Shown one piece after another: positions 1-29,740 of a stretch of DNA of 64,000 bases; the stretch's first letter is position 1, and each line of letters begins with the position of its first letter. The stretch lies in the sequence record PQ818763; one strand, 5' to 3'. The translations under genes and the position numbers were made by a program. The notes below the pieces were generated by a model, which did not search any database, was not told the DNA's origin, and saw nothing but the letters and a program-made list of their open reading frames with translations. Origin of the DNA: Shigella phage ShigP1.

Positions 1-429
1 GTTTTATATCTTTCGGCAAGTTTACTACATAAACCGACTATGTACTTTCATCATAAGATGAATCTCAAGCCGTTCACATCGTAAACGTTCACACTAAACC
101 TTATTGTTAAATAGCAATTTGCCACTTTTTAACCATTCACCGCCGCTCTCAATTGAGCGTTAATTCGTCGGGATTGCCTACCCTGATTAACTTCTTTCAC
201 CGTAGCACCATGTTAGCGATGACCGCCGCTACCCTTAACCGTGGGCGATTAGCTTAAGTCTTTGCGTGTACTCAATGAATCCGTTTATCAATGGTGACGT
301 TTCCAGTAAGGGAATGTAAAACTGTTTACCCTGATAATTTAGGGAGTTTTACGCCGTTTTATCTGGTATGCTTTCCGATGGTTATTATCATCAAGCATAT
401 TCAACCGATATAGGAGAATGTTTAAATTA

Positions 430-1372
430 TTAAAGAGCGGTAAATCTATCAGTGTGCTTTCTCACACTATGCAACTGTTAGCCGTTGTTACGCTTTTCAC
501 TGAAGCGATGATTTGCTTAGTGAGTGCTCATTATGAATCATGTTGTTTTCGCTGTCAACCGCTTTTTAATCTTTTTCGTCGTTCCCGCTATTGGGAGGAT
601 ATATCAATCAGCTTTATTTGATTGAAGATTAAGCGGTGAGGCTTAACTTATGACTCATGTTGTTAAAGAGCGTTTAGCCTTTTAAAGTGTCTGCTAATCA
701 CTGTCACATTGAAGGCTTACTGATTCATTAACAGGCCGCCTACACCTGAACTAATCGCTGCACTATGTGCCACCTTTCCCGCGATACGTTGATTTGGGAA
801 CTAGTTAGCGATGTTTTGCTAACTTGTGGTTAGTATGGACTACTTTAACCACGTTTGCAACTCTTTTTATCATCTTCTTTTAATTCCTTTCCCTTATCTC
901 GCGTGAATCTATGCGAAAGGGCAAGATGATAAGTCTGATTTGTCTTTCAGGGAATCTAGTGCGCTTTCAAGCATTAATCTTTTGAAAGTATCGAACAAAT
1001 AAGGCTTATTGATATTGCTTATTGTCCGCCTGCGTCACGTATGAATCAGGAATCAATTCTACCGATTAACTGAGCGCCTTATAGTAATGACGTCGCCGCC
1101 ACCCGTAAGACAAATCATATTTTTAAAGAGCGGGATTTTTTAAGTCATCGCTGACTATGCTCACTATATATCAGGCTGTTTTCGGTGTCAATACTCTTTT
1201 TAAGAATATTTTCACTTTCTAGCCTGATTTTTAAAGAGCGGGGCAAGTTTCCTTGCCTTGTATGTTTTACATCGTACCCGATGAAATGAAGTATACATTA
1301 ATCAGTGAGGGATGCAATAGGGTAAAACAAAATATTTTAAACTTTTTCACTATAGGAAGGTAAAAGAGCGGG
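430..1372. repeat. Five same-orientation copies of an 11-nt motif TTAAAGAGCGG (about 430, 663, 1123, 1231, 1363) in a 1.5 kb non-coding region
   Basis: Read directly: ttaaagagcgg at 430-440, 1123-1133, 1231-1241; ttaaagagcgt at 663-672; aaaagagcgg at 1363-1372. No long ORF across the region. Confidence 0.6.
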
Positions 1373-1471
1373 CGAACGTGATACATCATAGGAAAAGGCT
1401 TGTAAAGCGATAACAAGCGGCCTATAACGCATCACAATGAGCTAAAAGGGAGTAAGGTATACAATCACCTT

Positions 1472-1502
1472 AGAAAAGAAAAAAGCCTCATAGCGAGGCT
1501 TA
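1472..1502 (-). terminator. Hairpin (aagcctc / gaggctt) flanked by A/T runs, downstream of the minus-strand gene ending at 1578
   Basis: 7-bp inverted repeat at 1483-1501 with a T-run on the minus strand (A-run 1474-1484 on plus). Confidence 0.5.
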
Positions 1503-1577
1503 TAGGAAGGATTTAAAGCATCAGATAGATTATGACCATAGGCATGACTACGGCACAATACAGGAGAAAGATTAAGC

Positions 1578-1943
1578 CTATGGATTTACACATTGACCAT
1601 TACCGGACTCAATTTCATTCATGGACTCATCAAAGAGCGTCAACGATGAGCGCATCAAGTGATCTATCGTGATTTGTTTACCGGTAGTTTCATTTACCAG
1701 CAGAATAGCTTTGTTATCTGATTGCACATGATCAAAATCATTTACATGCAAAATAATAACTTTAGGTGACTGTTTACCAGTTTCGTAATTCTCTACGAGA
1801 TAGGTACACTGTAAACCGTCAACCGTATCAGGGGAGAATGTTGCAGCCTTAACGCTACCCATAGATGACAGCAGGACACCTAACAGGAGAACAACCAGAA
1901 AGAAGCCTACAAATACTTTCACTACAAACTTGATAACACCCAT
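1578..1943 (-). CDS. Membrane-anchored hypothetical protein (N-terminal hydrophobic segment)
   Basis: ORF of 121 aa; N-terminus VVKVFVGFFLVVLLLGVLL is signal-anchor-like; no recognisable catalytic motif. Confidence 0.4.
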   Translation of the reverse strand: MGVIKFVVKVFVGFFLVVLLLGVLLSSMGSVKAATFSPDTVDGLQCTYLVENYETGKQSPKVIILHVNDFDHVQSDNKAILLVNETTGKQITIDHLMRSSLTLFDESMNEIESGNGQCVNP

Positions 1944-2038
1944 GATAATAAACCTTTAGTTAGAGAATGTAAGAATACAGCATATCAGCAATGAACAGCA
2001 GGAAGGTCGCACCAAACAAGCAACGCCAAAAATAATCA

Positions 2039-2314
2039 CTATTCATCGTTGCTATTCTCGCCAAAAAATGCTACGCTAATCTGTTCCACTTCTTCCAGCG
2101 ACAGGAGAATCCCGCGTTGGGCTAAATACTTCCCAACAGTTAGATAATCTTGCACTAAACAGACAATAGGAAAGCGTATGTTTTGTATCTCACCTTTAGA
2201 AAGAAAAGACAAATAACCAGCGTCGACTGATTCATCAAAGGACAATGTAACGCCACCGTAATTATGCGTATCAATTAACGCAATAGTTTCATTTCCCATT
2301 GGTATCATCCCCAA
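2039..2314 (-). CDS. Hypothetical protein
   Basis: ORF of 91 aa, co-oriented with its neighbours; no motif recognised. Confidence 0.3.
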   Translation of the reverse strand: MGMIPMGNETIALIDTHNYGGVTLSFDESVDAGYLSFLSKGEIQNIRFPIVCLVQDYLTVGKYLAQRGILLSLEEVEQISVAFFGENSNDE

Positions 2315-2555
2315 TCAGACCATGATTAAGCAGGTTAGCCAGCGACAAATCACCGTCAATATAGATTGATCTGAAATCATCGCGGGTAATTTCGAAATCA
2401 GCAAAGGCTAGCCAATCTTTAAGAGGCTGATATTCCATCCTGCAAAAAGTGATAACAGGCAAGATTATCTGACCATCAAGTGTATTAAACTCGATAGATT
2501 GCCCACCAACAAAACAAGAAAAGCCGTTTGATAACTTAACTTCTTTGATAGCCAT
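2289..2555 (-). CDS. Hypothetical protein
   Basis: ORF of 88 aa, co-oriented; no motif recognised. Confidence 0.3.
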   Translation of the reverse strand: MAIKEVKLSNGFSCFVGGQSIEFNTLDGQIILPVITFCRMEYQPLKDWLAFADFEITRDDFRSIYIDGDLSLANLLNHGLIGDDTNGK

Positions 2556-2580
2556 TTTTACACTCCTGAAAATAGGTTAT

Positions 2581-3453
2581 TTACTTACTAGCCTTAATAC
2601 AGTTGGCTAAACTAACGTGAACGGTATAAACAGCGTTATTAGCGTTATTGTAAACAGTGGTAGCAATCATCGACTCATTGATCGGGCCATAACTCACTAG
2701 ATTGGTTACAGCTTTAACGTCTTCGTAACGTTGTACAGTGCCAAATGTAACCATATCCGAGTCACTATCGGTGCGCTTGAGAACTAGATCATTGTTAGGC
2801 TGATTGTCTAGTGTCTTAGACTGAAAGAGAACGCCATCATTAGTTACGTTGCTAAACTTCATTTTTAATACAATAGTACTTCCATCACTATCCGCACCGT
2901 TGCAAATCATCCAACCCTTATTGATGGAACTAGAGAAGACACTAGCGGCATCAGTTGCAGGAGTAGAACTAGCGATAGCTTTATCAGAAAGAGATGTGAC
3001 CAGTGCACTAACACCGATCGCTGCAACCAGTGCATAACTTGCCAGATTAACAGACTTCATAATCTTACTTGCAACAGTAGGCTTGATTGGCTGTTTCTTG
3101 TTTTTCTTATTCCATGCTTCAACCATGACAGACAAGCGGGATAATTCAGCTTTCACATCGCGGCATGACTCAGGCCAATCCTTCTGATTCCAGCTATCTA
3201 AATTTGCTTGAATGTAGCAATTAATAGCGTCCTGCATATTGGTAAAACCGTTCTCTTTGAACGTGCTTTCATCTTCACACTGTAAAGCGTTCGCAGTAGA
3301 GTTAATGATCAAGCAAGCCAGCATTACAGAGTTTTTGAATCCTTTACGTGCACTTTCGTTTTCCATCCACGCATCAGGACTACCAACGGTTAAGCCTAAA
3401 GAGGAAAGGCTTTCGTTTGCTTTGTTCAAGTGGTTAATCGCTACTTTAGACAT
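2581..3453 (-). CDS. Hypothetical membrane protein (single central TM helix)
   Basis: ORF of 290 aa; central hydrophobic stretch VNLASYALVAAIGVSALVTSL separates two hydrophilic domains. Confidence 0.45.
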   Translation of the reverse strand: MSKVAINHLNKANESLSSLGLTVGSPDAWMENESARKGFKNSVMLACLIINSTANALQCEDESTFKENGFTNMQDAINCYIQANLDSWNQKDWPESCRDVKAELSRLSVMVEAWNKKNKKQPIKPTVASKIMKSVNLASYALVAAIGVSALVTSLSDKAIASSTPATDAASVFSSSINKGWMICNGADSDGSTIVLKMKFSNVTNDGVLFQSKTLDNQPNNDLVLKRTDSDSDMVTFGTVQRYEDVKAVTNLVSYGPINESMIATTVYNNANNAVYTVHVSLANCIKASK

Positions 3454-4236
3454 TTGATATTCCTTATGGTTGATGAAAACTACAAACTACAATCGCAACT
3501 ATATAATAAAGGAAAAGGCTGTCAACCATTTATTTTCTAACTTTCCTATAACTCACTGAAAACTAAAGGGATTTAATTTACTAAACTTTCCATACTCAGA
3601 GAATCAGCTTACTTCTTATTGTTACTTTATAACACTACGGGTAACAGACCAACAGATCAGGACAAACGGGGATACAACAACCGCAGAACAGACCACGGGG
3701 AAACATAGGCAGATAGTGCGGTAGTAATATACCACTTAAATAATTGTATAACTCAAACATCAAAGACGTTCGCTACGCTCACAAAGGCACGCTGAAAAAA
3801 GAAAAGAATAAAAGCAATTATTAAAAGAATTACAATCATCCACTTAATTAATACATATATCATTATTGCACTCATAATCATTACTATTGAAACTATTTAC
3901 ATTCAAACTATGGGGGATGTGGGCTATTACTTATGGGTATTATTAGCCTCTTATGGTAGTGCCTGTACTAGTTTATACAGTGCTAGCCTTTCTCTCACTC
4001 TTTAAAGGGGAACTAAATAAACGGGTAGCTAATGAATAGGATGGTATACACGGGGGAATAATTACGGGGAGTAGGCACGGGGAAAGGTGGAACGTGGGAA
4101 TGGGCTTAAAGGCATTGCCAATAACCCTTTTTTTAAATGAGGACTCCCCCTTTTTAGGAAACGCGCGGCGAGCGGCTAGCCCCATTCGGTCAAATCAGAA
4201 TTTTAAACTCTTATATATAAGGTTGAAAGAGAACTT

Positions 4237-4401
4237 ATGTGGAAAATTAAGTTAATCATTAAGCAATTCAAATGTGATCATGAGTACTATCGGATACGCA
4301 AAGCTTACGGGGATGAAAGAGTTCACACCCTTTATAAGTCCACTTGGAGATGTAGTAAATGTGGAAAGCTTAAACACAGCACATGGATGGATAGGCCTTA
4401 A
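4237..4401 (+). CDS. Small Cys/His-rich (zinc-ribbon-like) protein, 54 aa, absent from the ORF track
   Basis: Manual translation MWKIKLIIKQFKCDHEYYRIRKAYGDERVHTLYKSTWRCSKCGK...; C-x-H ... C-x2-C spacing; lies inside the repeat-rich leader. Confidence 0.3.
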   Translation: MWKIKLIIKQFKCDHEYYRIRKAYGDERVHTLYKSTWRCSKCGKLKHSTWMDRP

Positions 4402-4614
4402 CGTGACATGGCCTTTATGTGATAGTGCCTTAATGTGAAGTAGTCATCAAAGATGACGTCCCCTTTATGTCTTAACTTTATCAGAGGGATGTATGACAGA
4501 AGATGAATACGGTAGCTTCTCTGAAGAAGACTACGAAAATGAATACAGGTATTCTCACGGGTGTTAATGTGAGGTGGCCTTTACGGGTATGTCTTATGAT
4601 GTGCCCTTTATACT
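4328..4614. repeat. Cluster of about 6-7 short direct repeats, (G)CCYTTTATGTGA and TTAATGTGARG variants, just upstream of the late module
   Basis: Read directly: ccctttat 4328-4335; gcctttatgtga 4411-4422; gccttaatgtgaag 4427-4440; cccctttatgtc 4460-4471; gtgttaatgtgagg 4561-4574; ggcctttacggg 4576-4587; gccctttatact 4603-4614. Confidence 0.5.
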
Positions 4615-4635
4615 CTTATTCAGAGGAGAAGAATT

Positions 4636-4890
4636 ATGAATTTAGTATTAGACTTTTTATCAGAGATGGTGCCTCGGTTCAGAACGGAGACATACGCTTT
4701 CGTGGTCAACAGTGACTCTGAAGAAGGGATGGAAGCTACTTGCTTAGGCCGTCTTGTTGATTTAGATGATGAAACAGATTTCGATATTACAATTGATGTA
4801 AGTAGTTTTGGTTGGCTCTTCTTCAGAGCATTCCGCACTTACAGAAAAGAAACATACAAAGATTACAGCAAGGGAGATACAAATGAATAA
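4636..4890 (+). CDS. Acidic hypothetical protein
   Basis: ORF of 84 aa; first plus-strand gene after the non-coding region. Confidence 0.4.
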   Translation: MNLVLDFLSEMVPRFRTETYAFVVNSDSEEGMEATCLGRLVDLDDETDFDITIDVSSFGWLFFRAFRTYRKETYKDYSKGDTNE

Positions 4891-5515
4891 TTTAATCCAA
4901 GCGATGGACCTTAACGATTACAATTCACAGCTATGTCGCTCTGGTTGTAGCTTACAGCATTTAGAAACTATGGGAAATGTTTCAGGATTGGCTGTACAAG
5001 ATTTATATAGTGGAAGTATTCTTAAACCAACTATTACGGAGAAGAAAGATATGATGAGTTTAGTAGAACAATACCGTGGACTTCAAGTCGGTACTATTGG
5101 TGATAAATATGAGAACTACTACAAAGATCGCTCAAAAGTACTTGAAGAAGTTGCACGGGCTAAGCCTTCTACTCTGGAAGTAGTTGAATACGAATCTACT
5201 AAACATGATCACCTCCCTGACTATGCTCGTGCAATGATTGAGATGATTGAAGAAGCTGAATACGAAATGCTCCATGATTATATTACCTCCAAAGATGAAT
5301 GGCATCGTGATGTTAGAATCGAAGAGGATGGTACAGAAACAATTACGTGGATTCACAAGAGTGAGCTAGTAGACGACGCACTGCGAGACTACGAAAAATT
5401 TTTGGTCGACGGCTCTATTCTTTTAGAGGAAGAGAAGGGTGCAGAACTTCCGTGGGAAGGTGAGACGATTGCTCTAGGTAAGATGTTTAACCTGTCCGTT
5501 GGTGATTGTAAGTAA
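4883..5515 (+). CDS. Hypothetical protein (start moved to internal Met)
   Basis: Internal ATG at 4883 preceded by AGGGAG; overlaps the upstream stop in an ATGAATAA arrangement. Confidence 0.45.
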   Translation: MNNLIQAMDLNDYNSQLCRSGCSLQHLETMGNVSGLAVQDLYSGSILKPTITEKKDMMSLVEQYRGLQVGTIGDKYENYYKDRSKVLEEVARAKPSTLEVVEYESTKHDHLPDYARAMIEMIEEAEYEMLHDYITSKDEWHRDVRIEEDGTETITWIHKSELVDDALRDYEKFLVDGSILLEEEKGAELPWEGETIALGKMFNLSVGDCK

Positions 5516-5571
5516 TATTTGCCTCCATTGGGAGGCTTTTTGTGTTGTTGATAATGTAGAAGGAGTATAAA

Positions 5572-6045
5572 ATGTTTGGAGAAAACGGAGAACTCACGCC
5601 TGCACAGGTAGCTGAGATTACAGGAAGATTACCCGGAGTAACGGAAGAACTCGAAAGCCGTGGTATGAACCCAAGCAATGGGAAGTTTCAAAAGGGAAAT
5701 AAATTCGGACGACCCAGAGGTAGTAGAGGTAAACTGACACAATTAATGTTGGACCGTGTTGCTGCAAGTCATTTGTCTCCTGATGAAGTGTTAATTCAAA
5801 TTTACGAAGATCCTAATATTCCACCCGATCTTAGATTCAAGGCTGCATCAAAAGTTGCAGATCTGGTATATCCTAAGGCGGCCTCTGTTGAAGTTAAGAT
5901 TGAGGAAGAGAATGTAATCAACGAAGAATCACTGAATGCACAAATCAAGGACTTCTTGACTGGAGCACTTGGTGTTGACGTTATGCCTCCAGAAGAAGAT
6001 AACTCTGAGGACGCTGAAAAGGGGGAGGAAGCGGACGAGAGTTAA
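5572..6045 (+). CDS. Candidate terminase small subunit
   Basis: 157 aa, immediately upstream of the large terminase; basic Gly-rich stretch GNKFGRPRGSRGK and acidic C-terminus; strong SD (GAAGGAG). Confidence 0.45.
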   Translation: MFGENGELTPAQVAEITGRLPGVTEELESRGMNPSNGKFQKGNKFGRPRGSRGKLTQLMLDRVAASHLSPDEVLIQIYEDPNIPPDLRFKAASKVADLVYPKAASVEVKIEEENVINEESLNAQIKDFLTGALGVDVMPPEEDNSEDAEKGEEADES

Positions 6046-6206
6046 GTAAAGGAAACAGGGAGCTGTCGAAGATCATCTGATTAATAATCTGAGGATTGTT
6101 ATAGTTTTATTGCCACGATGTTCTTTTGCAGTGTACCCTTGTAGTGGAGAGGGGAGGTTCTTTGACGAAGGGACTTTCCCTTTTCTATTTTTAAACTGGA
6201 GGAAGT

Positions 6207-7748
6207 ATGTCATTAGATAAACAAATTTATGAAGCTCTAACTGGTAACAACCTTAGTGTAGAGGAAAAGAAAGCACTATTGAATATGTTGAAAGAGCGTG
6301 ACCAATGGAGGAAGTATAATAAGATTTTGTCTTTCAAGGCGTATGACTTCCAAAAGAAATTTTATGCAGCAGGATTGAAGCATCGCTTTAGATTCTTGTG
6401 TGCAGCGAACCGTGTTGGTAAATCTTATAGCGAGGCATACGAGTTTGCTTGTCATGTCACAGGTCGCTACCCAACTTGGTGGACAGGGTATAAATTTAAA
6501 AGACCTATCTTAGCATGGGCAGTTGGTATTACAGGGGATTCCACAAGGAAAGTATTGCAAAAGGAGTTGTTTGGTACACCTATCGGAAAGGATACAAATT
6601 TATTAGGGACAGGTGTCATTCCTCGTGATGCTATCGTCATTGACACGATAGAACGAGATGGTAACAAACTTCAAATCGTACAAATCAAACATCAAAACGA
6701 AAGAGGAGAGTTTGACGGTTTAAGTACATTAGAATTCCGTTCAACCCAACAGGGTGAACACACATTGATGGGTGCAACAGTTGACTACATTTGGTTAGAC
6801 GAAGAAGATCCATACGAGTCTATGGCTATATTCGCACAGTGCGTCACACGTACACTCACAACTAAAGGTCTAGTTACAATTACAGCTACACCAGAGAACG
6901 GTTTAACTGAACTGGTAGATAAATTTATGAAAGGTGAAGGGGATGAGAACACAGGTTCTCTATATTTCCAGAACGCTTCTTGGTGGGATGCTCATGCAGA
7001 CCTAGGTGGACACATCACTGACCAAGATATAAAAGATATGACTGAAGGTATTCCAGCGTGGCAGTTAGAGATGCGTTCGAAAGGTATGCCATTGTTAGGA
7101 AGTGGTTTGATTTATGATGTATCGGATGACACAATTAAATGTGAACCATTCGAAATTCCTGATACGTGGAAACGTGTCTGTGCAATTGATATTGGTATTG
7201 ATCACCCAACTGCTGCTGTTTGGACAGCTTACGATGCAAACACGGATACTATCTATGTTTACGACTCATATAAAGAAGGTGGCTTTACTCCAGTGTATCA
7301 TGCTCCAGCTATTAATGGTCGTGGTCAGTGGATTCCTGTCATCCTACCGCATGATGCGGACAATATTGAGAAAGGTAGTGGTTCATCTGTTGCTCAATTC
7401 TATAAGAATGCAGGAGTTAACGTACAGAGTGAGACCTTCTACAACAAAATTGGAATGGATGGTAAAAAGAACTTCTTTGTAGAACCCGGAATCACAGATA
7501 TCCGAGAAAGAATGATGAGTGGACGCTTTAAAATCTTTAACACAGCTGCTAACGCTAAGCTATTCGAAGAGAAAGCTAGATATCACCGTAAGGTTGGTAA
7601 GATTATTAAAGAACATGATGACTTAATGGATGCAATGCGCTATTCAGCGTGCTCTGTTACACATCGTGGTCGCTCTAAACATGACGTTAGCTACGGAAGT
7701 GCTTCTCTGTATGAGGCAAACGTAAGCAGATGGAATCAGAGTTACTAA
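6207..7748 (+). CDS. terL: Terminase large subunit
   Basis: 513 aa; P-loop-like AANRVGKSY, Walker-B-like YIWLDEEDP, nuclease-domain acidic residues (AIDIGIDHP); followed by the portal gene. Confidence 0.85.
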   Translation: MSLDKQIYEALTGNNLSVEEKKALLNMLKERDQWRKYNKILSFKAYDFQKKFYAAGLKHRFRFLCAANRVGKSYSEAYEFACHVTGRYPTWWTGYKFKRPILAWAVGITGDSTRKVLQKELFGTPIGKDTNLLGTGVIPRDAIVIDTIERDGNKLQIVQIKHQNERGEFDGLSTLEFRSTQQGEHTLMGATVDYIWLDEEDPYESMAIFAQCVTRTLTTKGLVTITATPENGLTELVDKFMKGEGDENTGSLYFQNASWWDAHADLGGHITDQDIKDMTEGIPAWQLEMRSKGMPLLGSGLIYDVSDDTIKCEPFEIPDTWKRVCAIDIGIDHPTAAVWTAYDANTDTIYVYDSYKEGGFTPVYHAPAINGRGQWIPVILPHDADNIEKGSGSSVAQFYKNAGVNVQSETFYNKIGMDGKKNFFVEPGITDIRERMMSGRFKIFNTAANAKLFEEKARYHRKVGKIIKEHDDLMDAMRYSACSVTHRGRSKHDVSYGSASLYEANVSRWNQSY

Positions 7749-7809
7749 AGTAAGGGGGAGGTTTGTCCTCCCTTCTTTTATTTAAGCTATCAACCGAGGG
7801 AGAGAATCG

Positions 7810-10053
7810 ATGGCTAAGCAAAAATATAGTGAAGAGGTGTTGGACGAGTTACGTGTTGACCTTCAACGTCGTTTTAATTATGCTCAAGGCTACGTGGACA
7901 TGGCTGTTAAGGGCTATGCTCGTGAAGCTTGGGAATATTTCTATGGTAACTTACCTGCACCAGTAACTGCTGGCAGCTCTAGTTGGGTAGATCGTACTGT
8001 TTGGGAATCTGTTAACGGTACATTGCAAGATATTATTAACGTATTCTGTTCTGGTGATGAAGCAGTTACTTTCGTAGCTGACAACCAACAGGATTCTGAT
8101 GCTGCTGACGTAGCAACTAAATTAGTTAACCAAATTCTTCTGCGTGATAATCCGGGATACAATATTATCTCTTCTGCTGCACAAGAATGTCTGGTTACTC
8201 GTAACTCTTTTATCAAGTATTATTGGGATGAACAAACTTCTACTCAAACTGAAGAAGCTGAAGGTGTACCACCGGAAGCATTGGCTGCATATGTTCAGGG
8301 ATTAGAAGCTGGTGGACTCAAGAATCTGGAAATCTTCACTGAAGAAAATGAAGATGGTACAGTAGATGTTAAAGTTACTTACGAACAAACCGTTAAACGT
8401 GTGAAAGTTGAATATGTTCCTTCAGAGCAAATCTTTGTTGACGAACATGCTACCTCTTTTGCAGATGCACAATACTTCTGTCATCGTGTACGTCGTTCTA
8501 AAGAAGATCTGGTTGCTATGGGATTCCCTAAAGATGAGATTGAAGCATTTAACGACTGGACAGATACAATGGATACCACTCAATCTACAGTTGCTTGGTC
8601 TCGTACTGACTGGCGTCAGGATATTGATGCTGATATTGGTACAGATACCGAAGATATCGCTTCTATGGTTTGGGTTTATGAGCACTATATTCGTACTGGT
8701 GTTCTAGATAAGAATAAAGAGTCTAAACTCTATCAGGTTATTCAAGCTGGTGAGCATATCCTTCACACTGAAGAAGTAACTCACATTCCGTTTGTAACCT
8801 TCTGCCCGTATCCGATTCCGGGTTCCTTCTATGGTCAATCGGTCTATGACATTACGAAAGATATTCAAGATTTACGTACCGCGTTAGTTCGTGGTTATAT
8901 TGATAACGTCAACAATGCTAACTATGGTCGATACAAGGCTCTTGTTGGTGCATACGACCGTCGCTCTCTGCTTGATAACCGTCCCGGTGGAGTGGTTGAA
9001 ATGGAACGTCAGGACGCTATTGACCTGTTCCCATACCATAACCTACCTCAAGGTATTGACGGCCTCCTAGGCATGTCTGAGGAGCTTAAAGAGACACGTA
9101 CAGGTGTAACCAAACTAGGCATGGGTATCAACCCTGATGTGTTTAAGAATGATAACGCTTATGCAACCGTAGGCTTGATGATGAATGCTGCACAGAACCG
9201 TCTCCGTATGGTATGTCGTAACATTGCTCACAATGGTATGGTTGAATTGATGCGTGGTATTTACAACCTTATCAGAGAAAATGGTGAAGTTCCTATCGAG
9301 GTACAAACCCCTCGTGGTATGATTCAGGTAAATCCAAAACAATTACCAGCTCGTCACAATCTTCAAGTTGTTGTAGCTATCTCTCCTAACGAGAAAGCAG
9401 AACGTGCACAGAAACTGATTAGCTTGAAACAGCTGATTGCAGCAGATGCACAGTTAGCACCTCTCTTTGGTTTGGAGCAAGACCGTTACATGACTGCACA
9501 GATCTTTGAGTTGATGGGTATTAAAGATACTCATAAATATCTTCTGCCTCTGGAACAGTATCAGCCTCCAGAACCTTCTCCGATGGAAATCCTCCAGCTC
9601 GAGATGACTAAAGCACAGGTTGAGAACGTACAGGCTTCTTCTCAGAAGATGATTGCTGATGCATTCGACCAACGTGAACGTACTACATTCGAACAGCAGA
9701 AAGCTGCGGATGAATTAAGTCTACGTCAGGAAGAGTTGCAATTCAAGCAAGAAAATGCAGCAGATGCAATGACTCTGGAAAACCGTAAAGAAGATAACAA
9801 TGCTACTCTGGAACAAGCTAAGCACAAGTTAGCTCTTATGCAACAGCAGGTCCGTCAGTATGAATCTGTACTGAAAGAATTGCAGATGGTTATGTCTCAT
9901 CAGGTAGACCAAGAGAAGATTGTTCAGCAAGCTCGTGTTCAGGATAAAACTTTGGAACTCCAAAAGAAAGAAGCTAATGTAACTAAGAAAGAGCAACAAG
10001 CTTCTCTCAAAGATTCACGGATTCCAGGCAAACGTCTTGGAAGTAAAAACTAA
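7810..10053 (+). CDS. Portal protein
   Basis: 747 aa, directly downstream of terL and upstream of scaffold/capsid; SD GGGAGAG before the ATG. Assigned by synteny and size. Confidence 0.7.
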   Translation: MAKQKYSEEVLDELRVDLQRRFNYAQGYVDMAVKGYAREAWEYFYGNLPAPVTAGSSSWVDRTVWESVNGTLQDIINVFCSGDEAVTFVADNQQDSDAADVATKLVNQILLRDNPGYNIISSAAQECLVTRNSFIKYYWDEQTSTQTEEAEGVPPEALAAYVQGLEAGGLKNLEIFTEENEDGTVDVKVTYEQTVKRVKVEYVPSEQIFVDEHATSFADAQYFCHRVRRSKEDLVAMGFPKDEIEAFNDWTDTMDTTQSTVAWSRTDWRQDIDADIGTDTEDIASMVWVYEHYIRTGVLDKNKESKLYQVIQAGEHILHTEEVTHIPFVTFCPYPIPGSFYGQSVYDITKDIQDLRTALVRGYIDNVNNANYGRYKALVGAYDRRSLLDNRPGGVVEMERQDAIDLFPYHNLPQGIDGLLGMSEELKETRTGVTKLGMGINPDVFKNDNAYATVGLMMNAAQNRLRMVCRNIAHNGMVELMRGIYNLIRENGEVPIEVQTPRGMIQVNPKQLPARHNLQVVVAISPNEKAERAQKLISLKQLIAADAQLAPLFGLEQDRYMTAQIFELMGIKDTHKYLLPLEQYQPPEPSPMEILQLEMTKAQVENVQASSQKMIADAFDQRERTTFEQQKAADELSLRQEELQFKQENAADAMTLENRKEDNNATLEQAKHKLALMQQQVRQYESVLKELQMVMSHQVDQEKIVQQARVQDKTLELQKKEANVTKKEQQASLKDSRIPGKRLGSKN

Positions 10054-25235: not shown

Positions 25236-26018
25236 ATGGCAATTAAAATGGGTATTGAAGAACTAGACCCAATGGTGCAACAGGCTTCAAAAAAGTATGG
25301 AATACCAGCTGCTTTGATTCATGCTGTAATCCAAAGAGAGTCTAGTGGACGTCCTAAGGTAGCCTCTGGAACTGGTCCTGTAGGTTTAATGCAGATCAGT
25401 AAAGGATTGGCTAAAGACTATGGATACAAACTGGAAGATAGACTGGACCCAGCAAAGAATATTGACATGGGTGCTCGTTATATCAGAGATAACTTAAAAG
25501 CTTTTAATGGCGATGTTAAGAAAGCAATGGTTGGTTATTCAGAAGGAACCGGTGGTGCTAGGCAGATGTTCGCTGGTAAGAAAGGGTTTACCCCTCAGGC
25601 TCTAGACTCAATGAACAACAAACACTTTCTTCCTTTTTACGGTGATGCAGCTTCTCAGATTGCTAACCCAATTGGAGCTTTACAAGCTGTTCAACCAGTC
25701 AATCAGTTTAATCCTGACTTGTTAGACAGAGAGAAGGCTGCACAAGCTCCCACTCAGGCAGAGATTGCTGCTTCTAAGACAGGCGCTTTAGGTGGTAATC
25801 CGGTAGAGTTTTACTCTGATGAAGTACAGGAAGGTGAAGACCAGAAGCCTCAACAGAACTTTGGTAATGCAGTATTAGGAGTAGCTGCTATGCTTGCTGG
25901 TAAACCTCCTACTTCTCAAACAGTTCAGAGAGCGAGTGCACCACATGCGGCAGGTTCTCAGTACAGTCCACAAACACAAGCAGTGCTTAGACGTTTGGCT
26001 AGCATTGGTGTTAAGTAA
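25236..26018 (+). CDS. Lytic transglycosylase (SLT domain), probably virion-associated
   Basis: ALIHAVIQRESSGRPKVASGTGPVGLMQIS carries the catalytic E-S and GLMQ motifs of the SLT family. Confidence 0.75.
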   Translation: MAIKMGIEELDPMVQQASKKYGIPAALIHAVIQRESSGRPKVASGTGPVGLMQISKGLAKDYGYKLEDRLDPAKNIDMGARYIRDNLKAFNGDVKKAMVGYSEGTGGARQMFAGKKGFTPQALDSMNNKHFLPFYGDAASQIANPIGALQAVQPVNQFNPDLLDREKAAQAPTQAEIAASKTGALGGNPVEFYSDEVQEGEDQKPQQNFGNAVLGVAAMLAGKPPTSQTVQRASAPHAAGSQYSPQTQAVLRRLASIGVK

Positions 26019-26037: not shown

Positions 26038-27090
26038 ATGTCTTTATTTGGAAAATCAGCTTCTAGCAAAACCACAGTGGCTCCTTCCTCTCAGGTTGAT
26101 GCCCTGCTGAAGCAGATTGTTGCTAATGCTCAGAATATGCAGAACAACGATCCGGGATTCATCTCCCAACAGCTAGCTGGGTTTAATGGCAACCAACAGG
26201 GTGCTCTGAACAACTTAGCAGCTTCTACTACTCAGAAGCAATTGGCTGATATGTACACACCTCGTACACAGCAAGGGTTGGACCAACTAAATGCTCTTGC
26301 TCAACAATATCAGAATATTGTCAACGGTGGTGGTCTAACTGCTGAAGGTGTTAATAAGTTTAGTAAAGGGTTGAATAACTCAGCTCTTGCTCAGGCTACT
26401 AGCAAGGCAGCTTCTAATGTATCTCTTGGAAATGGTTCTGATTCAGGTTCCCTCCGTAGAGCTGCGGCTCAAGGGGCTGCTTTGAATGGTGCTAATACAA
26501 ACCTATCTCGTACCATCAACGGTAAGAACATGGGGATTAGTGCTCTTCAACAAGATCAGAACTTCCAGAGAGGTTTGCTTGGTGCTCAGTCTGGTCTAGC
26601 TGGACAGAATCTCAATCTTGGTGCACAAGGTGTTCAGGCAACTCAACAGGCTATTCAGAATCAGCTGATGGCTGGTAATCTACAACAGCAACAAGCTCAA
26701 GCTCAAGCGGATATTAACTGGCAAAATGCTATTGGCTCTCAGCAGTATGGGTGGAATCAGCTTAACAACCAACTTAATGTATTAAATAGTGTAAGCCCAA
26801 TGGCTGGGTACACGATTAAGAATGCTGCTCCGGGGGTTAATACTGGACAACAGCTCCTAGGTGCTGGTATCACTGGATTAGGTATTGCAGGTCGTATGGG
26901 TGCTTTCTCTCCTAATCAACAGACTCAGAATGCTTGGAGTTCCTATAACAACTCAGGTGGGCAATCTGGAATGGCTGGTCCTATGATTGGTGGTTCTAAT
27001 CTTTCTCAACAGAGAGGTCAGTCTAACTGGTTATCCACAGCAGGTAGTAATATCTTAGGTGGTGTCTTAGGGGCATTTGGAGCAAACTAA
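26038..27090 (+). CDS. Gln/Asn/Gly-rich virion protein (internal/ejection protein candidate)
   Basis: 350 aa, low-complexity Q/N/G/A-rich; strong SD. Confidence 0.4.
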   Translation: MSLFGKSASSKTTVAPSSQVDALLKQIVANAQNMQNNDPGFISQQLAGFNGNQQGALNNLAASTTQKQLADMYTPRTQQGLDQLNALAQQYQNIVNGGGLTAEGVNKFSKGLNNSALAQATSKAASNVSLGNGSDSGSLRRAAAQGAALNGANTNLSRTINGKNMGISALQQDQNFQRGLLGAQSGLAGQNLNLGAQGVQATQQAIQNQLMAGNLQQQQAQAQADINWQNAIGSQQYGWNQLNNQLNVLNSVSPMAGYTIKNAAPGVNTGQQLLGAGITGLGIAGRMGAFSPNQQTQNAWSSYNNSGGQSGMAGPMIGGSNLSQQRGQSNWLSTAGSNILGGVLGAFGAN

Positions 27091-27102
27091 AGGAGATTTG
27101 AT

Positions 27103-28071
27103 ATGGGACTTTTCGGAGGCGGGGGTAGTAAAACTACTTCCCAAATGATTCGCCCTGAATACATTCAACAGTATATTGACCAGCTTAACCAACAGATTGG
27201 TAATACTAGTTCAGGGGATTATGTCTATCGTGACAATGTAGGGTTTAATAACAATCAGACAGAGGCACTTAATAACCTAGCACAATCTGGCGCTTTGGGC
27301 ACTCTCTCACAGCAATACATGGATGCAGCAGGTCAAGGGTTAGGGTATCTGGATAATGCCTATAAAGGCTATCAGAGCCTCTCTGGACAAGGTGGGATTA
27401 CTGGAGAACAGATTGGTGCTCTCGCTGGTCAACTGTATGATGATGACGCTGTGCAAGCAGCCATTACAGCTAATAATGAACAGGTTCAACAGAACTTGGC
27501 ACGTAATGCTCTTCCTCAGTTAGCTCAACAGTATGCTGGTCAGCAGGGTTCAGGTGCTCGTATGGCTAAATCTTTTGCCCAAGGTGATGCTCTGAATCAG
27601 ATGCAAGGGCAAGCAACAGATATTACCAATAGTGCATATAACTCGGCTATCAGCCAAGCTGAAAGCATCCTCTCTGGTAATAGACAGAATCAGGCAGCTG
27701 CTCTCTCTGGTCTTTCTAATATTGGTTCTAACCTTTCTAACCTAGGTCAGCAGGGTGCTAATTTGTCTCAACAGCAAATAATGAATCAATGGAATGCAGG
27801 GTTGCAGCAACAACAGCAACAACAGAATGAATATGATAATGCCTACCAGAATGCTCAGAACGCAGCTAATTGGGGATGGCAAGATATCAATAACCAACTC
27901 GGTGCAGCAGGTGTACTTAACGGTGCTCTCGGACAAACTACAACTACTAAAACATCTGGTGGCAAAGGTGGTTTCCTTGGTGGAGCTATGAGTGGTGCAG
28001 CAGCTGGCTCTTCCTTTGGACCTTGGGGTGCATTAGCTGGGGGTGTAATCGGTGGGTTGGCTAGTACTTAA
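27103..28071 (+). CDS. Gln/Asn/Gly-rich virion protein, related in composition to the preceding gene
   Basis: 322 aa, same compositional bias; SD AAAGGAG. Confidence 0.4.
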   Translation: MGLFGGGGSKTTSQMIRPEYIQQYIDQLNQQIGNTSSGDYVYRDNVGFNNNQTEALNNLAQSGALGTLSQQYMDAAGQGLGYLDNAYKGYQSLSGQGGITGEQIGALAGQLYDDDAVQAAITANNEQVQQNLARNALPQLAQQYAGQQGSGARMAKSFAQGDALNQMQGQATDITNSAYNSAISQAESILSGNRQNQAAALSGLSNIGSNLSNLGQQGANLSQQQIMNQWNAGLQQQQQQQNEYDNAYQNAQNAANWGWQDINNQLGAAGVLNGALGQTTTTKTSGGKGGFLGGAMSGAAAGSSFGPWGALAGGVIGGLAST

Positions 28072-28084
28072 TTAGGAGATAAAT

Positions 28085-29740
28085 ATGCAACAGACAACTT
28101 ACGCTCAGGTCAGAAGTCGTGACCCGAGAAATACTTTCTATGGTGTTAATCCGGGAGCGGCTTCGGCCTCTCCTTATATGGCTAGACCTACTCAGACAGC
28201 AGATATTTCTATGTATCAACGTCCTGCTGTACCTTCATCTCTTGCGGGTCTTGTCTCTCAGGCAGAGGAAGATCAGAATGCTATGGTTAATCCGGGATTC
28301 CAGCAACGTCTTATGGAACAGCAGAATCAAGGAACTCCTACCAGTCTTCAGGGTATTGATATTGGAGCACCGGCCCCTGTATCAGCTAATCCTAACCTAT
28401 CCACTGATCAAGGTTTACAGGATGCTGGGCTTATGCCTAGTGGCCCTCTTCCGGTAACACCTCCTCCTAAACCACTAGAAGCTGGTCCTATGGAGTTTAC
28501 TCCTTCTCAGGTGGAACAGGCACAGGGTGTGATTAATACTCTTGCTCAAGGACAAGACACTGGTGATGGAATGGCTGCTGCTACTCGTGCTAAAGATCAG
28601 GAACGTGTTAACAACGATATCTTGCAAGTTGCGAAAGCTAAAGACCCTTCGGAAGCTTGGAACAAACTACAGAAAGAACCATTCTACCAAAACTCCAGTT
28701 TCTACACAGGTTTGATGGGTGTAGGTCTTTCCATTATGTCAGGTAAGTCTCCTATTGAAGCTTTCCAGATTGGTCAGGGAATGGCTAATCAAGATGAGAC
28801 TAAGAAGCAACTGGAAGCTAACCGTGATGCTCTGATTGAACAAGGCTTCTCTCAAGACTCGATTGCAGCTGCTATTGCTAACGGAGACCCGTCTCTACTG
28901 AAGATGAGAGCTGTAGACCCTGCTCAGAAAGAAGCGCTGTATGCTGCTCGTGAAGAACGACAAAATGCTGAATGGGATAGACGTCAACAGATTCAAGAGC
29001 AGACTATGCGTGAGCGTGCTGAGGAAACTCGTCGTGCTGCTGAAGAAAGGGCTAATATGAACTTTGAACGTCAGAAAGAGTTGATTGGGTATCGTGATCA
29101 AGTCAAGGCTGAACGTGCTGAACAAGCTGCTCAGAGTTTTAACTTTAACCCGAAAGAAGTTCGTCTTGCTCAGAATACAGCTGAAGGTACGGTTGCTAAG
29201 CAGTGGGCAGAGAAAGGTGGCCTGTTTAACCAGTCTAATAAAGACTTGGATTTGGCTGATAAGGCTGTTAAGGATAAAGACTATCAGACAGCTCGTTCTG
29301 CTTACATGCAAGCTATCATGAACTCCGCAAGGGCTGAAATCGGTGCTACTCGTTCTCTTACCGAAGAAGACTTGGGGCACTTTGCAGAAGACCCGTCAAT
29401 CTTCGTTCGTGTTGGCAACAAGTTTGCACTGAAGTCTGGATGGCGTCCTACTGATTCTGCTCTTGCTTATGCTCGTAAGCAAGCTAACGTTGGTCATACC
29501 TCTGCAATGAAAGGTGTTGCTGATGCTAAGAGAGCTACGATTGAAGCTTACATTGGTTCTGGTATGGATAAGAAGAGAGCTACTGCATTGGTCAACCGTG
29601 CAATCCCTTCTGGTGGTTTCTATGACCCTCTAGGTGTTTTCTCTGAACAAGCAGAAGAAGCGGTTGGTGGTGCAGCAACCAATCCTAAGCTTAATGGTGC
29701 TCTATCAGCTGTTGAAGATACGAGCTGGTTCACTCAATAA
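28085..29740 (+). CDS. Internal virion protein candidate
   Basis: 551 aa; Pro/Gln-rich N-terminus and charged helical C-terminus. Confidence 0.4.
   Translation: MQQTTYAQVRSRDPRNTFYGVNPGAASASPYMARPTQTADISMYQRPAVPSSLAGLVSQAEEDQNAMVNPGFQQRLMEQQNQGTPTSLQGIDIGAPAPVSANPNLSTDQGLQDAGLMPSGPLPVTPPPKPLEAGPMEFTPSQVEQAQGVINTLAQGQDTGDGMAAATRAKDQERVNNDILQVAKAKDPSEAWNKLQKEPFYQNSSFYTGLMGVGLSIMSGKSPIEAFQIGQGMANQDETKKQLEANRDALIEQGFSQDSIAAAIANGDPSLLKMRAVDPAQKEALYAAREERQNAEWDRRQQIQEQTMRERAEETRRAAEERANMNFERQKELIGYRDQVKAERAEQAAQSFNFNPKEVRLAQNTAEGTVAKQWAEKGGLFNQSNKDLDLADKAVKDKDYQTARSAYMQAIMNSARAEIGATRSLTEEDLGHFAEDPSIFVRVGNKFALKSGWRPTDSALAYARKQANVGHTSAMKGVADAKRATIEAYIGSGMDKKRATALVNRAIPSGGFYDPLGVFSEQAEEAVGGAATNPKLNGALSAVEDTSWFTQ

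What the first reader, a model, noticed from the sequence alone, without database searches (positions are those of the whole stretch)
1578..3453. Antisense four-gene island bounded by repeat-rich non-coding DNA
Four minus-strand ORFs, two with predicted membrane anchors and none with recognisable enzymatic motifs, sit between the two non-coding regions and upstream of the late module. Position, membrane topology and lack of essential-function signatures fit an accessory cassette such as superinfection exclusion, host-envelope modification or a toxin/immunity pair.
Basis: inference. Interest (0 to 1): 0.45.

Follow-up and report, generated by a model that had tools for sequence, protein, structure and literature searches.

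The report
Terminal early envelope operon of a kuravirus
The flagged island is the last transcription unit at the right end of a phiEco32-like coliphage genome: a dispensable, fast-evolving early operon of five small genes, three of whose products go to the cell envelope, which most likely blocks secondary infection, although no function has been tested.

Summary
Window 1578-3453 carries tightly packed minus-strand genes that are conserved in 76-93 phage records and under purifying selection (dN/dS 0.02-0.47). There are five genes, not four: a conserved 28-aa membrane micro-ORF (1960-2046) was missed.

The window is a circularly permuted Kuravirus genome, and the island equals phiEco32 genes 125-128. 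The 193-bp terminal repeat maps to 3985-4177. In the virion the island is therefore the last unit at the right end, not upstream of the late genes.

The island is self-contained, with a conserved sigma-70 promoter (3525-3498) and an intrinsic terminator (1501-1483).

Products:
- a bitopic inner-membrane protein with a periplasmic 8-stranded beta-barrel and an invariant cysteine pair;
- a Sec-secreted 88-aa beta-barrel (pLDDT 94) with its own invariant cysteine pair;
- a membrane micro-peptide;
- two small acidic cytoplasmic proteins.

The database labels "terminase" and "polymerase" are spurious. The cassette is absent from the 68-kb clade, relocated in another clade, and evolves 5-20 times faster than its flank, so it is accessory. 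The best guess, unproven, is periplasmic superinfection exclusion, with the ejected SLT transglycosylase as a possible target.

The parts
3498..3525 (-). Sigma-70 promoter of the island: TTGACA, 16-nt spacer, TATAGT (11 of 12 consensus positions), with an A-rich upstream stretch
   Evidence: Consensus scan. The promoter is conserved across Kuravirus, Nieuwekanaalvirus and Suseptimavirus loci, and more strongly than the coding DNA downstream. The SU10 paper reports one sigma-70 promoter upstream of the orthologous gene.
2581..3453 (-). Gene 1, orthologue of phi32_128 (290 aa). Bitopic inner-membrane protein: cytoplasmic helical N-domain, K-rich linker, one TM helix, periplasmic beta-barrel.
   Evidence: It is 96% identical to phi32_128 (P0021).
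3091..3453 (-). N-domain of gene 1 (aa 1-121), phrog_15368. A promiscuous N-terminal module, absent from many kuraviruses.
   Evidence: PHROG match to aa 1-121. It occurs as a standalone ~120-aa gene in Klebsiella, phAPEC8-like, Pantoea and Yersinia phages (146 records). About 43 representative clusters carry it fused to varied C-termini. The AF2 model is low-confidence and helical.
2989..3057 (-). TM segment of gene 1 (aa 133-155). In the 163-aa short forms it is an N-terminal signal peptide or anchor ending in AIA|S.
   Evidence: Hydropathy. NLASYA...GVSA is invariant, and the short forms start just before it.
2584..2946 (-). Periplasmic domain of gene 1 (aa 170-290): 8-stranded meander beta-barrel with invariant Cys184 and Cys285
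2289..2555 (-). Gene 2, orthologue of phi32_127 (88 aa, pI 4.4, cytoplasmic). Mislabelled 'polymerase'.
   Evidence: It occurs only in Gordonclarkvirinae, at 47-100% identity. There are no PDB or Pfam hits.
2039..2299 (-). Gene 3, orthologue of phi32_126 (86 aa from ATG 2299, pI 4.2, cytoplasmic)
   Evidence: The PHROG match starts at residue 6 of the 91-aa ORF. The ATG overlaps the stop of gene 2. It is found in 77 records, all Gordonclarkvirinae.
1960..2046 (-).
   Evidence: It is intact in 9 of the first 11 relatives, with dN/dS 0.10-0.32. It is annotated in Bas90, Bas87 and Bas88.
1578..1943 (-). Gene 5, orthologue of phi32_125 (121 aa). Signal peptide aa 1-33 (nt 1845-1943), cleavage at VKA|A. 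The mature product is an 88-aa secreted beta-barrel with invariant Cys46 and Cys118. Mislabelled 'terminase'.
1473..1501 (-). Intrinsic terminator of the island: 7-bp GC-rich stem (AAGCCUC/GAGGCUU), 5-nt loop, U-run
   Evidence: A terminator is annotated at the same place in SU10 and SU7.
3985..4177 (.). Direct terminal repeat, present as one collapsed copy. The physical right end of the virion DNA lies at about 4177 and the left end at about 3985.
   Evidence: blastn of the phiEco32 193-bp DTR gives 92.8% identity over 195 columns. The YF01 paper describes ~190-bp DTRs in this phage group.
1163..1191 (-). Context: the first of the strong early sigma-70 promoters (TTGACA, 17-nt spacer, TATAGT) in the spacer downstream of the island. 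It drives the next early unit, not the island.
   Evidence: It is duplicated as a 34-nt module at 525-558. The SU10 paper places three sigma-70 promoters in this spacer.

Best explanation
Shown. The island is the right-terminal early transcription unit of a phiEco32-like Kuravirus, orthologous to phi32_125-128 and SU10 CDS121-125. It begins about 530 nt inside the right terminal repeat. It has its own consensus sigma-70 promoter and intrinsic terminator, and it encodes five small proteins.

Inferred from sequence and models.
- Host RNA polymerase transcribes the unit as soon as this end of the DNA is in the cell.
- Gene 1 inserts into the inner membrane with its helical N-domain in the cytoplasm and an 8-stranded beta-barrel in the periplasm.
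- Gene 5 is exported by Sec, cleaved after VKA, and folds into a free 88-aa periplasmic beta-barrel. Each barrel carries one invariant cysteine near its first strand and one at or near its last strand. I read each pair as a probable disulfide closing the barrel; that bond was not measured on the models.
- The 28-aa micro-protein sits in the membrane.
- The two 86-88-aa acidic proteins stay in the cytoplasm.
- The phage factor gp79 shuts off sigma-70 transcription in the middle phase, so expression is confined to early infection.

Most likely function (hypothesis). The tethered barrel, micro-peptide and secreted barrel form a non-essential periplasmic module. It makes the already-infected cell refractory to further genome delivery, which is superinfection exclusion in the manner of T4 Sp/Imm. 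One candidate target is the ejection proteins of incoming kuraviruses, including the SLT lytic transglycosylase encoded at window 25236-26018.
For: Identity and position:
- The window is 96.5% identical to Kuravirus genomes.
- It is colinear with phiEco32 74553-77076.
- The DTR maps to 3985-4177.

Autonomous unit:
- Promoter with 11 of 12 consensus positions, and a terminator.
- The promoter is conserved across three genera.
- Promoter and terminator are described for SU10 and phiEco32.
- Early genes are sigma-70 dependent and shut off by gp79.

Real genes: dN/dS 0.02-0.47.

Periplasmic targeting:
- Interchangeable signal peptides with a conserved A|A junction.
- The short 163-aa forms of gene 1 begin with the hydrophobic segment and end it in AIA|S.
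- A K-rich stretch precedes the TM on the N-terminal side.
- Both domains have invariant Cys pairs.

Accessory and co-inherited:
- The trio is present in 12 related loci (in MLP3 the micro-ORF is only weakly detected) and absent as a set in LAMP and Bas93.
- Identities of the two barrels rank-correlate at rho 0.92.
- dN is 5-20 times that of flanking gp124.
- The cassette and its promoter sit inside the early region, not at the terminus, in EcoN5.
- It is absent from 5,426 E. coli genomes.

Plausible target: an SLT domain at E 1.7e-24 in the ejection-protein block of this window. The SU10 ejection protein gp20 is described as a transglycosylase.
Against: - No experiment bears on function.
- There is no sequence relation to any known exclusion protein or lysozyme inhibitor in Pfam, PHROGs, NCBIfam or PADLOC.
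- The fold matches are generic: the top hits are de novo designed barrels, and the PliC and PhiA scores are modest.
- The two cytoplasmic proteins and the N-domain are unexplained by this model.
- It is not established which genome end enters first.
- The model of the gene 1 N-terminal half is unreliable (pLDDT 40-50).
- The correlation between the two barrels could reflect linkage alone.
- I did not find a kuravirus exclusion phenotype in the papers I searched.
Confidence: 0.4

Rival explanations
1. Host-envelope remodelling for the phage's own benefit rather than exclusion of other phages. The periplasmic barrels would bind a host envelope component, such as the O-antigen/LPS assembly machinery, an outer-membrane receptor or a periplasmic hydrolase. 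The aim would be to mask receptors on infected cells and debris, as T5 Llp does, or to stabilise the envelope until lysis.
For: It rests on the same periplasmic targeting and accessory nature as the main model. Gordonclarkvirinae depend on O-antigen as receptor. The cassette occurs only in virulent phages of E. coli and Shigella.
Against: No lipobox is present, so neither protein is an outer-membrane lipoprotein like Llp or Cor (by inspection). There is no glycosyltransferase or acetyltransferase signature. The fast divergence of the barrels among phages that share the same host species fits a phage-encoded target better than a conserved host one.
Confidence: 0.2
2. Anti-defence or host-takeover operon. 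As probably the first DNA to enter, the unit would encode inhibitors of host immunity. The two small acidic proteins or the promiscuous N-domain would act as a restriction inhibitor or other counter-defence, analogous to T7 gene 0.3 (Ocr) at the leading end.
For: - The unit has a terminal position and a sigma-70 promoter.
- Its small products have pI 4.2 and 4.4.
- The N-domain is spread across unrelated virulent enterobacterial phages and fused to variable C-termini, some ending in an SSB-tail-like EIPF.
- Gordonclarkvirinae are remarkably RM-resistant with no known restriction inhibitor.
Against: The BASEL paper describes Gordonclarkvirinae as a group, and Bas86-93 specifically, as pronouncedly RM-resistant. 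Yet Bas87, Bas88, Bas90 and Bas93 share no single island gene. There is no PADLOC or Pfam anti-defence hit. This model does not explain the three envelope-targeted products, which are the conserved core of the cassette.
Confidence: 0.2
3. Lysis-timing control. A bitopic protein with a large periplasmic domain plus a small secreted periplasmic partner resembles T4 holin T and antiholin RI. The pair could sense superinfection and delay lysis.
For: The architecture is analogous: one TM helix with a periplasmic domain carrying a conserved cysteine pair, plus a small secreted protein.
Against: - The genes are early and sigma-70 dependent, and the lysis genes are reported in the left-hand late module.
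- There is no PHROG or Pfam holin or antiholin hit.
- The signal peptide is strongly hydrophobic (best 12-residue Kyte-Doolittle window 3.38) and does not look like a Gly/Ala-rich SAR domain.
- Phages lacking the cassette still lyse, since Bas93 and LAMP are viable isolates.
Confidence: 0.08
4. Toxin/immunity pair, or structural or replication proteins as the database labels 'terminase' and 'polymerase' suggest.
For: Only the labels support this: phrog_13168 'terminase' and phrog_14176 'polymerase', plus matching GenBank annotations.
Against: The labelled PHROG families have the same length as these proteins, and the genes occur only in Gordonclarkvirinae. Pfam finds no terminase or polymerase domain at E<=1. 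The 'terminase' is a signal-peptide-bearing 88-aa beta-barrel, and the orthologous region carries an annotated large terminase at the position of window 6207-7748. The 'polymerase' is only 88 aa. No TA family matches.
Confidence: 0.03

Closest known systems
phiEco32 genes 125-128 and SU10 CDS121-125 (right-end early operon of Kuravirus)
   Same: They are orthologous gene for gene, with 87-98% aa identity for genes 125, 126 and 128 and 66% for gene 127. Order, orientation, sigma-70 promoter, terminator and distance to the 193-bp DTR are all the same.
   Different: Nothing essential differs. This phage carries a different allele of gene 127 and lacks the ~220-bp insert (SU10 CDS123) that phiEco32 and SU10 have between genes 126 and 127. 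I found no assigned function in the literature searched.
T4 Spackle (Sp) and Imm superinfection exclusion proteins
   Same: These are early-expressed, small, non-essential proteins of a virulent coliphage that act from the inner membrane or periplasm against incoming phage. From my own knowledge, Sp is a signal-peptide-bearing periplasmic protein that inhibits the gp5 lysozyme of superinfecting T4. Here the analogous candidate target would be the ejected SLT transglycosylase.
   Different: No sequence relation was found: PHROG and Pfam searches return only kuravirus-specific families. From my own knowledge, Sp is helical, whereas these domains are beta-barrels. An exclusion phenotype is not demonstrated here.
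PliC/MliC and Brucella PhiA periplasmic muramidase-inhibitor barrels
   Different: There is no Pfam MliC match. The scores are no better than for many unrelated barrels such as de novo designs, Cap15, lipocalins and outer-membrane barrels. Inhibitory activity is untested.
T7 gene 0.3 / T5 pre-early genes (leading-end early units)
   Same: Each is a short, promoter-proximal unit at a genome terminus, transcribed by host RNA polymerase before the rest of the genome is expressed, and it carries dispensable genes directed at the host (my own knowledge for T7 and T5; for this island).
   Different: Here the conserved core is envelope-targeted rather than cytoplasmic anti-restriction. It is not established which end of kuravirus DNA enters first.

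Membership tests
phiEco32-type right-terminal early operon (phi32_125-128) | Orthology and synteny of the genes with phi32_125-128 | tested here: met
   tblastn identities to phiEco32 are 87% (125), 94% (126), 66% (127), 93% (128 C-part) and 98% (128 N-domain), in the same order and strand.
phiEco32-type right-terminal early operon (phi32_125-128) | Location next to the right direct terminal repeat | tested here: met
   The DTR maps to 3985-4177, 532 nt from the start codon of gene 1.
phiEco32-type right-terminal early operon (phi32_125-128) | Own sigma-70 promoter and downstream terminator | tested here: met
   Consensus promoter at 3525-3498 and terminator at 1501-1483. This agrees with the SU10 paper. 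Transcription itself was not measured here.
T4 Sp / Imm and other known superinfection-exclusion families (Sie, Cor, Llp, Sim) | Sequence membership in the family profile | tested here: not met
   Pfam at E<=1 gives nothing relevant. PHROGs at E<=0.01 gives only kuravirus-specific families or families of unknown function.
T4 Sp / Imm and other known superinfection-exclusion families (Sie, Cor, Llp, Sim) | Early expression and envelope location | tested here: met
   This is met at the level of sequence features only: a sigma-70 promoter, signal peptides, a TM helix and invariant Cys pairs.
T4 Sp / Imm and other known superinfection-exclusion families (Sie, Cor, Llp, Sim) | Expression blocks infection by a second phage | not testable with these tools
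   This needs plating, DNA-entry or double-infection assays.
MliC/PliC lysozyme inhibitors | Match to the Pfam MliC profile | tested here: not met
   No Pfam hit at E<=1 for either barrel protein.
MliC/PliC lysozyme inhibitors | Periplasmic 8-stranded beta-barrel fold | tested here: inconclusive
Terminase (label of phrog_13168) | Terminase small- or large-subunit domain | tested here: not met
   There is no Pfam terminase hit. The protein has a signal peptide and folds as an 88-aa beta-barrel. The annotated large terminase lies at the position of window 6207-7748.
DNA polymerase B (label of phrog_14176) | Polymerase B domain | tested here: not met
   The protein is 88 aa. It has no Pfam hit at E<=1 and no significant PDB sequence hit (best E 0.58).
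Spanins (Rz/Rz1) or holin/antiholin | Lipobox in the secreted partner, coiled-coil periplasmic domain, position in the late lysis cassette | tested here: not met
   No lipobox is seen at the cleavage region (by inspection). The periplasmic domains are beta-barrels. The unit is an early operon, and the lysis module is reported on the left arm.
Cap15-like TM plus beta-barrel effectors | Cytoplasmic nucleotide-binding barrel behind N-terminal TM helices | tested here: not met

The most novel reading that the evidence does not exclude
The membrane-tethered barrel, the 28-aa membrane peptide and the secreted barrel would together form a previously undescribed three-part superinfection-exclusion system of virulent podophages. 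It would neutralise the ejection proteins of incoming phages in the periplasm, for example the SLT transglycosylase. It would use a protein family unrelated to any known exclusion factor and would diversify in step with its phage-encoded target. A separate open possibility is that the promiscuous N-domain (phrog_15368), with its SSB-tail-like partners, is a new early counter-defence module shared by many enterobacterial phages.
Probability: 0.25. Interest if true: 0.6.

Novelty: new variant of a known kind. Interest (0 to 1): 0.4.

Why it matters
Kuraviruses are abundant, broad-host-range coliphages and are being considered for therapy, yet their early genes are almost all uncharacterised.

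- **Cocktail design.** If this cassette excludes secondary infection, it affects how related phages can be combined in cocktails.
- **A new protein family.** It would add a beta-barrel family to the short list of known exclusion mechanisms in virulent phages.
- **A ready experiment.** A natural deletion clade (Bas93, LAMP) sits beside Bas90 in a public collection, which gives an immediate test system.
- **Annotation clean-up.** The 'terminase' and 'polymerase' labels attached to these genes are wrong. They recur across the annotated kuravirus records seen here and in PHROGs, and should be removed.

Tried and rejected
- **Sequence families.** Pfam, NCBIfam and PADLOC gave no hit for any of the four proteins (one sub-threshold Pfam hit only). 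PHROGs gave only kuravirus-specific or unknown-function families.
- **Solved structures by sequence.** Nothing significant for any protein or profile.
- **Are the two barrels homologous?** hhalign found no relation (probability 0.1). I can only claim the same fold class.
- **Are genes 2 and 3 paralogues?** BLASTP found no alignment.
- **Internal start at Met132.** I looked for an internal translation start that would make a short secreted form of gene 1. There is no Shine-Dalgarno sequence upstream, so I dropped this idea.
- **Small ORFs upstream of the promoter (3622-3881).** They are broken by stops in relatives, so they are non-coding.
- **Rfam on 1-5000.** Nothing credible.
- **Host or prophage copies of the island.** None in 5,426 E. 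coli genomes. In plasmids, only two weak N-domain hits.
- **Domain fusions of the N-domain.** The partners have no Pfam domain, apart from one DUF5983, and only unknown-function PHROGs.
- **Primary phiEco32 papers.** Savalia 2008 and Pavlova 2012 are not held in the library. Promoter statements therefore rest on secondary descriptions.
- **Literature search.** No functional data were found for genes 125-128.
Full report
**What the window is.** Megablast of window 1-8000 finds 99 phage records. The best are 96.5% identical over 98% of the query, and nearly all are Escherichia phages of the genus Kuravirus, subfamily Gordonclarkvirinae. The flagged region is colinear with phiEco32 positions 74553-77076, which is the extreme right end of that 77,554-bp linear genome. 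It corresponds to genes phi32_125 to phi32_128 and to SU10 CDS121-125. The 193-bp direct terminal repeat of phiEco32 maps once to window 3985-4177, at 92.8% identity. The window is therefore a circular permutation in which the two physical ends are joined. In the virion the island is not upstream of the late module. It is the last transcription unit at the opposite end of the chromosome, and its first start codon lies 532 nt inside the repeat.

**Checking the observation.** The four minus-strand ORFs exist at the stated coordinates. The second one starts at ATG 2299, giving 86 aa, rather than at the upstream TTG 2314. The PHROG profile match begins at residue 6 of the longer ORF, and the ATG overlaps the stop of the preceding gene by 11 nt.
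- All four are real genes. tblastn finds orthologues in 93 records (gene 1 C-part), 76 (gene 2), 77 (gene 3) and 86 (gene 5), all in Escherichia or Shigella Gordonclarkvirinae.
- Pairwise dN/dS against ten relatives is 0.02-0.47.
- A fifth gene was missed. It is a 28-aa hydrophobic micro-ORF at 1960-2046(-), with the sequence MNSDYFWRCLFGATFLLFIADMLYSYIL. It starts at the stop of gene 3, is intact in 9 of the first 11 relatives, has dN/dS 0.10-0.32, and is annotated in three BASEL phages.
- By contrast, the small ORFs between the island and the terminal repeat (3622-3881) are interrupted by stops in relatives, so they are not genes.

**Cis elements.** A sigma-70 promoter with 11 of 12 consensus positions (TTGACA, 16-nt spacer, TATAGT; 3525-3498, minus strand) lies just upstream of gene 1. 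An intrinsic terminator (7-bp GC-rich stem, 5-nt loop, U-run; 1501-1483, minus strand) lies 77 nt after gene 5.
- The promoter, with an A-rich upstream stretch, is conserved across Kuravirus, Nieuwekanaalvirus (EP335) and Suseptimavirus (SU7). It is better conserved than the coding DNA downstream of it.
- The SU10 paper describes exactly this arrangement for SU10 and phiEco32. There is one sigma-70 promoter upstream of the last gene, a terminator after CDS121, and three more sigma-70 promoters in the long spacer beyond.
- Two of those further promoters are visible at 1191-1163 and 558-530 as a duplicated 34-nt module.
- Early phiEco32 genes are transcribed by the host sigma-70 holoenzyme and are shut off by phage gp79 in the middle phase.
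- The island is therefore a self-contained early operon.

**The products.**
- **Gene 5 (121 aa)** has an N-terminal hydrophobic segment followed by VKA|A. Across homologues, three unrelated signal-peptide versions precede the same invariant A-A junction and a conserved 88-aa mature part. One version is the textbook MKIKFAVCAALFAVSSVSHA|A. The mature part has two invariant cysteines. AlphaFold2 models the mature part with mean pLDDT 93.9 and pTM 0.82 as a 7-8-stranded meander beta-barrel.
- **Gene 1 (290 aa)** has a helical N-domain (aa 1-121), a lysine-rich linker, an invariant TM segment (aa 133-155) and a C-terminal domain with invariant Cys184 and Cys285. The C-terminal domain is modelled at pLDDT about 67-87 as eight beta-strands. 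The N-terminal half is unreliable, at pLDDT 40-50.
- **Short forms of gene 1.** Many kuraviruses carry a 163-aa form that begins at the hydrophobic segment and ends it in AIA|S, which looks like a signal peptide.
- **Topology.** The lysine-rich N-side, the signal-peptide-like short forms and the conserved cysteine pairs together place both barrels in the periplasm. I infer that each cysteine pair forms a disulfide closing the barrel. The cysteines sit near the first strand and at or near the last strand, but I could not measure their distance on the models.
- **Genes 2 and 3** (88 and 86 aa, pI 4.4 and 4.2) have no hydrophobic segment, no family or PDB match, and no similarity to each other.

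**The database labels.** PHROGs and several GenBank records call gene 5 'terminase' and gene 2 'polymerase' or 'DNA polymerase B'. These PHROG families have the same length as the kuravirus proteins, and the genes occur only in Gordonclarkvirinae. Pfam finds no such domains at E<=1. The 'terminase' is a secreted 88-aa barrel. The orthologous region in relatives carries an annotated large terminase at the position of window 6207-7748. The labels are propagated errors.

**Accessory nature.** Across 14 related loci, the flanking early gene phi32_124 stays 94-100% identical. Its dN is 0.001-0.038. The island genes diverge far more.
- Identity ranges are 43-96% for the gene 1 barrel, 55-97% for gene 5, and 42-98% and 49-97% for genes 3 and 2 where they are present.
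- dN reaches up to 0.5, and dS is often saturated.
- Gene content varies. The N-domain of gene 1 is present or absent, genes 2 and 3 are present, absent or replaced by other small genes, and the 68-kb clade (LAMP, Bas93) lacks genes 1, 3, 4 and 5 altogether.
- In EcoN5 the whole cassette, with a degenerate copy of its promoter, sits inside the early region, downstream of the phi32_122-124 homologues instead of at the terminus. The record coordinates of IMEP8 and Bas94 suggest the same arrangement.
- The tethered barrel, micro-peptide and secreted barrel are inherited as a set. In MLP3 the micro-ORF is only weakly detected. The identities of the two barrels to the window rank-correlate at rho 0.92 over 12 loci, although linkage alone could produce that.
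- The island has no counterpart in 5,426 complete E. coli genomes.

**The N-domain.** The first 121 residues of gene 1 (phrog_15368) occur as standalone genes of about 120 aa in Klebsiella T1-like phages, phAPEC8-like myophages, and Pantoea and Yersinia phages (146 records). An exhaustive profile search of 1.84 billion representatives found 48 clusters. Five contain the barrel. About 43 contain the N-domain, nearly always at the N-terminus, joined to variable C-termini of up to 563 aa in total. Many partners carry AHAEALEMN-type repeats and end in ...EIPF or DLPF, which recalls the SSB C-terminal tail. One such gene lies in the early region of a phage-like Klebsiella contig. The partners have no informative Pfam or PHROG match. 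The role of this module is open.

**Most likely mechanism.** The following steps are shown or well supported: early sigma-70 transcription from a terminal promoter, export of two barrels to the periplasm, a membrane micro-peptide, dispensability, and rapid diversification. From there I infer a function. I think the envelope trio most likely makes the infected cell refractory to further genome delivery, in the manner of T4 Sp/Imm. One concrete candidate target is the ejection-protein set of incoming kuraviruses. SU10 releases five ejection proteins, one of them described as a transglycosylase. This window encodes a 260-aa SLT-domain protein (E 1.7e-24) at 25236-26018, followed by four large ORFs with no known domain. 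I put about 0.4 on this family of explanations. The anatomy and the identification I would put at about 0.9.

**Rivals.**
- **Envelope remodelling or receptor masking** for the phage's own benefit (0.2) cannot be separated from exclusion without experiments.
- **Anti-defence** (0.2) is attractive, because Gordonclarkvirinae are reported to be remarkably RM-resistant with no known inhibitor and the unit is terminal. However, the paper reports pronounced RM resistance for Gordonclarkvirinae as a group and for Bas86-93 specifically, and Bas87, Bas88, Bas90 and Bas93 share no single island gene. No island gene can therefore be the general explanation.
- **Lysis-timing control** (0.08) fits the architecture loosely. 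It conflicts with the early timing, the barrel fold and the viability of clades that lack the cassette.
- **Toxin/immunity, structural or replication roles** (0.03) have no support.

**Novelty and verdict.** The genes have been known as hypothetical ORFs since the phiEco32 genome was published, and the promoter and terminator are described. The following points come from this analysis, and I did not see them in the literature I could search:
- the fifth gene;
- the periplasmic barrel pair with conserved cysteine pairs;
- the modular N-domain;
- the autonomy and mobility of the cassette;
- the correction of the misleading labels.

If the cassette is an exclusion module, it is a new protein family doing a known job. 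Interest is moderate. The finding is not surprising in kind, but it yields a sharp hypothesis that is cheap to test in a publicly available phage set.

Noticed in passing
window 430-440, 663-673, 1123-1133, 1231-1241, 1361-1371 (+ strand): An 11-nt motif, TWAAAGAGCGK, occurs 5 times in 64 kb against 0.17 expected. All copies lie in the spacer left of the island and all on the + strand. Three to six copies lie in the same spacer of ten of the eleven Gordonclarkvirinae loci then in hand, including the clade that lacks the island. It looks iteron-like and could mark an origin or regulator sites. Its function is unknown.
   Followed up: partly
window 3985-4177: A single collapsed copy of the 193-bp direct terminal repeat shows that the window is a circular permutation of a linear genome. 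The physical ends lie between the island and the + strand genes.
   Followed up: yes
window 525-558 and 1158-1191 (- strand promoters at 558-530 and 1191-1163): A duplicated 34-nt module carries two sigma-70 promoters, each matching 11 of 12 consensus positions. They point leftward into the main early region, downstream of the island's terminator.
   Followed up: partly
window 3091-3453 (-); proteins P0149-P0202: The N-domain of gene 1 (phrog_15368) is a promiscuous N-terminal module found in many virulent enterobacterial phages. Its fusion partners carry AHAEALEMN-type repeats and often end in ...EIPF or DLPF, which resembles the SSB C-terminal tail.
   Followed up: partly
L011 (EcoN5) 2084-3594; the record coordinates of IMEP8 and Bas94 suggest the same: In this clade the cassette, with a degenerate copy of its promoter, sits inside the early region, downstream of the phi32_122-124 homologues instead of at the terminus. 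It has therefore moved as a unit.
   Followed up: partly
window 1578-1943, 2289-2555, 4808-5515 and their homologues: Propagated mislabels appear in PHROGs and GenBank: 'terminase' on a secreted 88-aa barrel, and 'polymerase' or 'DNA polymerase B' on an 88-aa acidic protein. The label 'ABC transporter / OppA' on the left-end ORF also looks implausible, but I did not test it.
   Followed up: partly
protein P0145 versus window 1960-2046: In one kuravirus lineage the micro-ORF peptide (MIRDYFWRVLF...) is fused in frame to gene 5 and serves as its signal peptide. This suggests that the micro-ORF and the gene 5 leader are evolutionarily interchangeable.
   Followed up: no
window 4398-4417 and 4564-4583 (+): A 20-nt direct repeat (TTAAYGTGA..TGGCCTTTA) lies upstream of the left-end + strand genes. 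It resembles the phage sigma (gp36) promoter consensus tAATGTAtA quoted for phiEco32.
   Followed up: no
window 3665-4083 (+): Four copies of MACGGGGR, plus one TACGGGGA, cluster within 420 bp at and just inside the terminal repeat. The total count is not above chance for the whole window (4 against 2.5 expected), but all copies lie here. They may be sites related to packaging or the genome end.
   Followed up: partly
window 25236-26018 (+) and 26038-34229 (+): A 260-aa SLT transglycosylase-domain protein is followed by four large ORFs (350, 322, 551 and 1488 aa) with no Pfam domain. These correspond to the ejection-protein block described for SU10. An HNH endonuclease gene lies at 34274-34639(-).
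   Followed up: partly
BFVD entries A0A097EXN9 (phage 121Q) and A0A142IIM1 (SEGD1): Uncharacterised proteins of about 100-126 aa from jumbo coliphages show weak fold similarity to the secreted barrel of gene 5 (Foldseek E 2e-4 and 1e-2, TM-score to the query 0.58 and 0.49, at about 14-20% identity).
   Followed up: no
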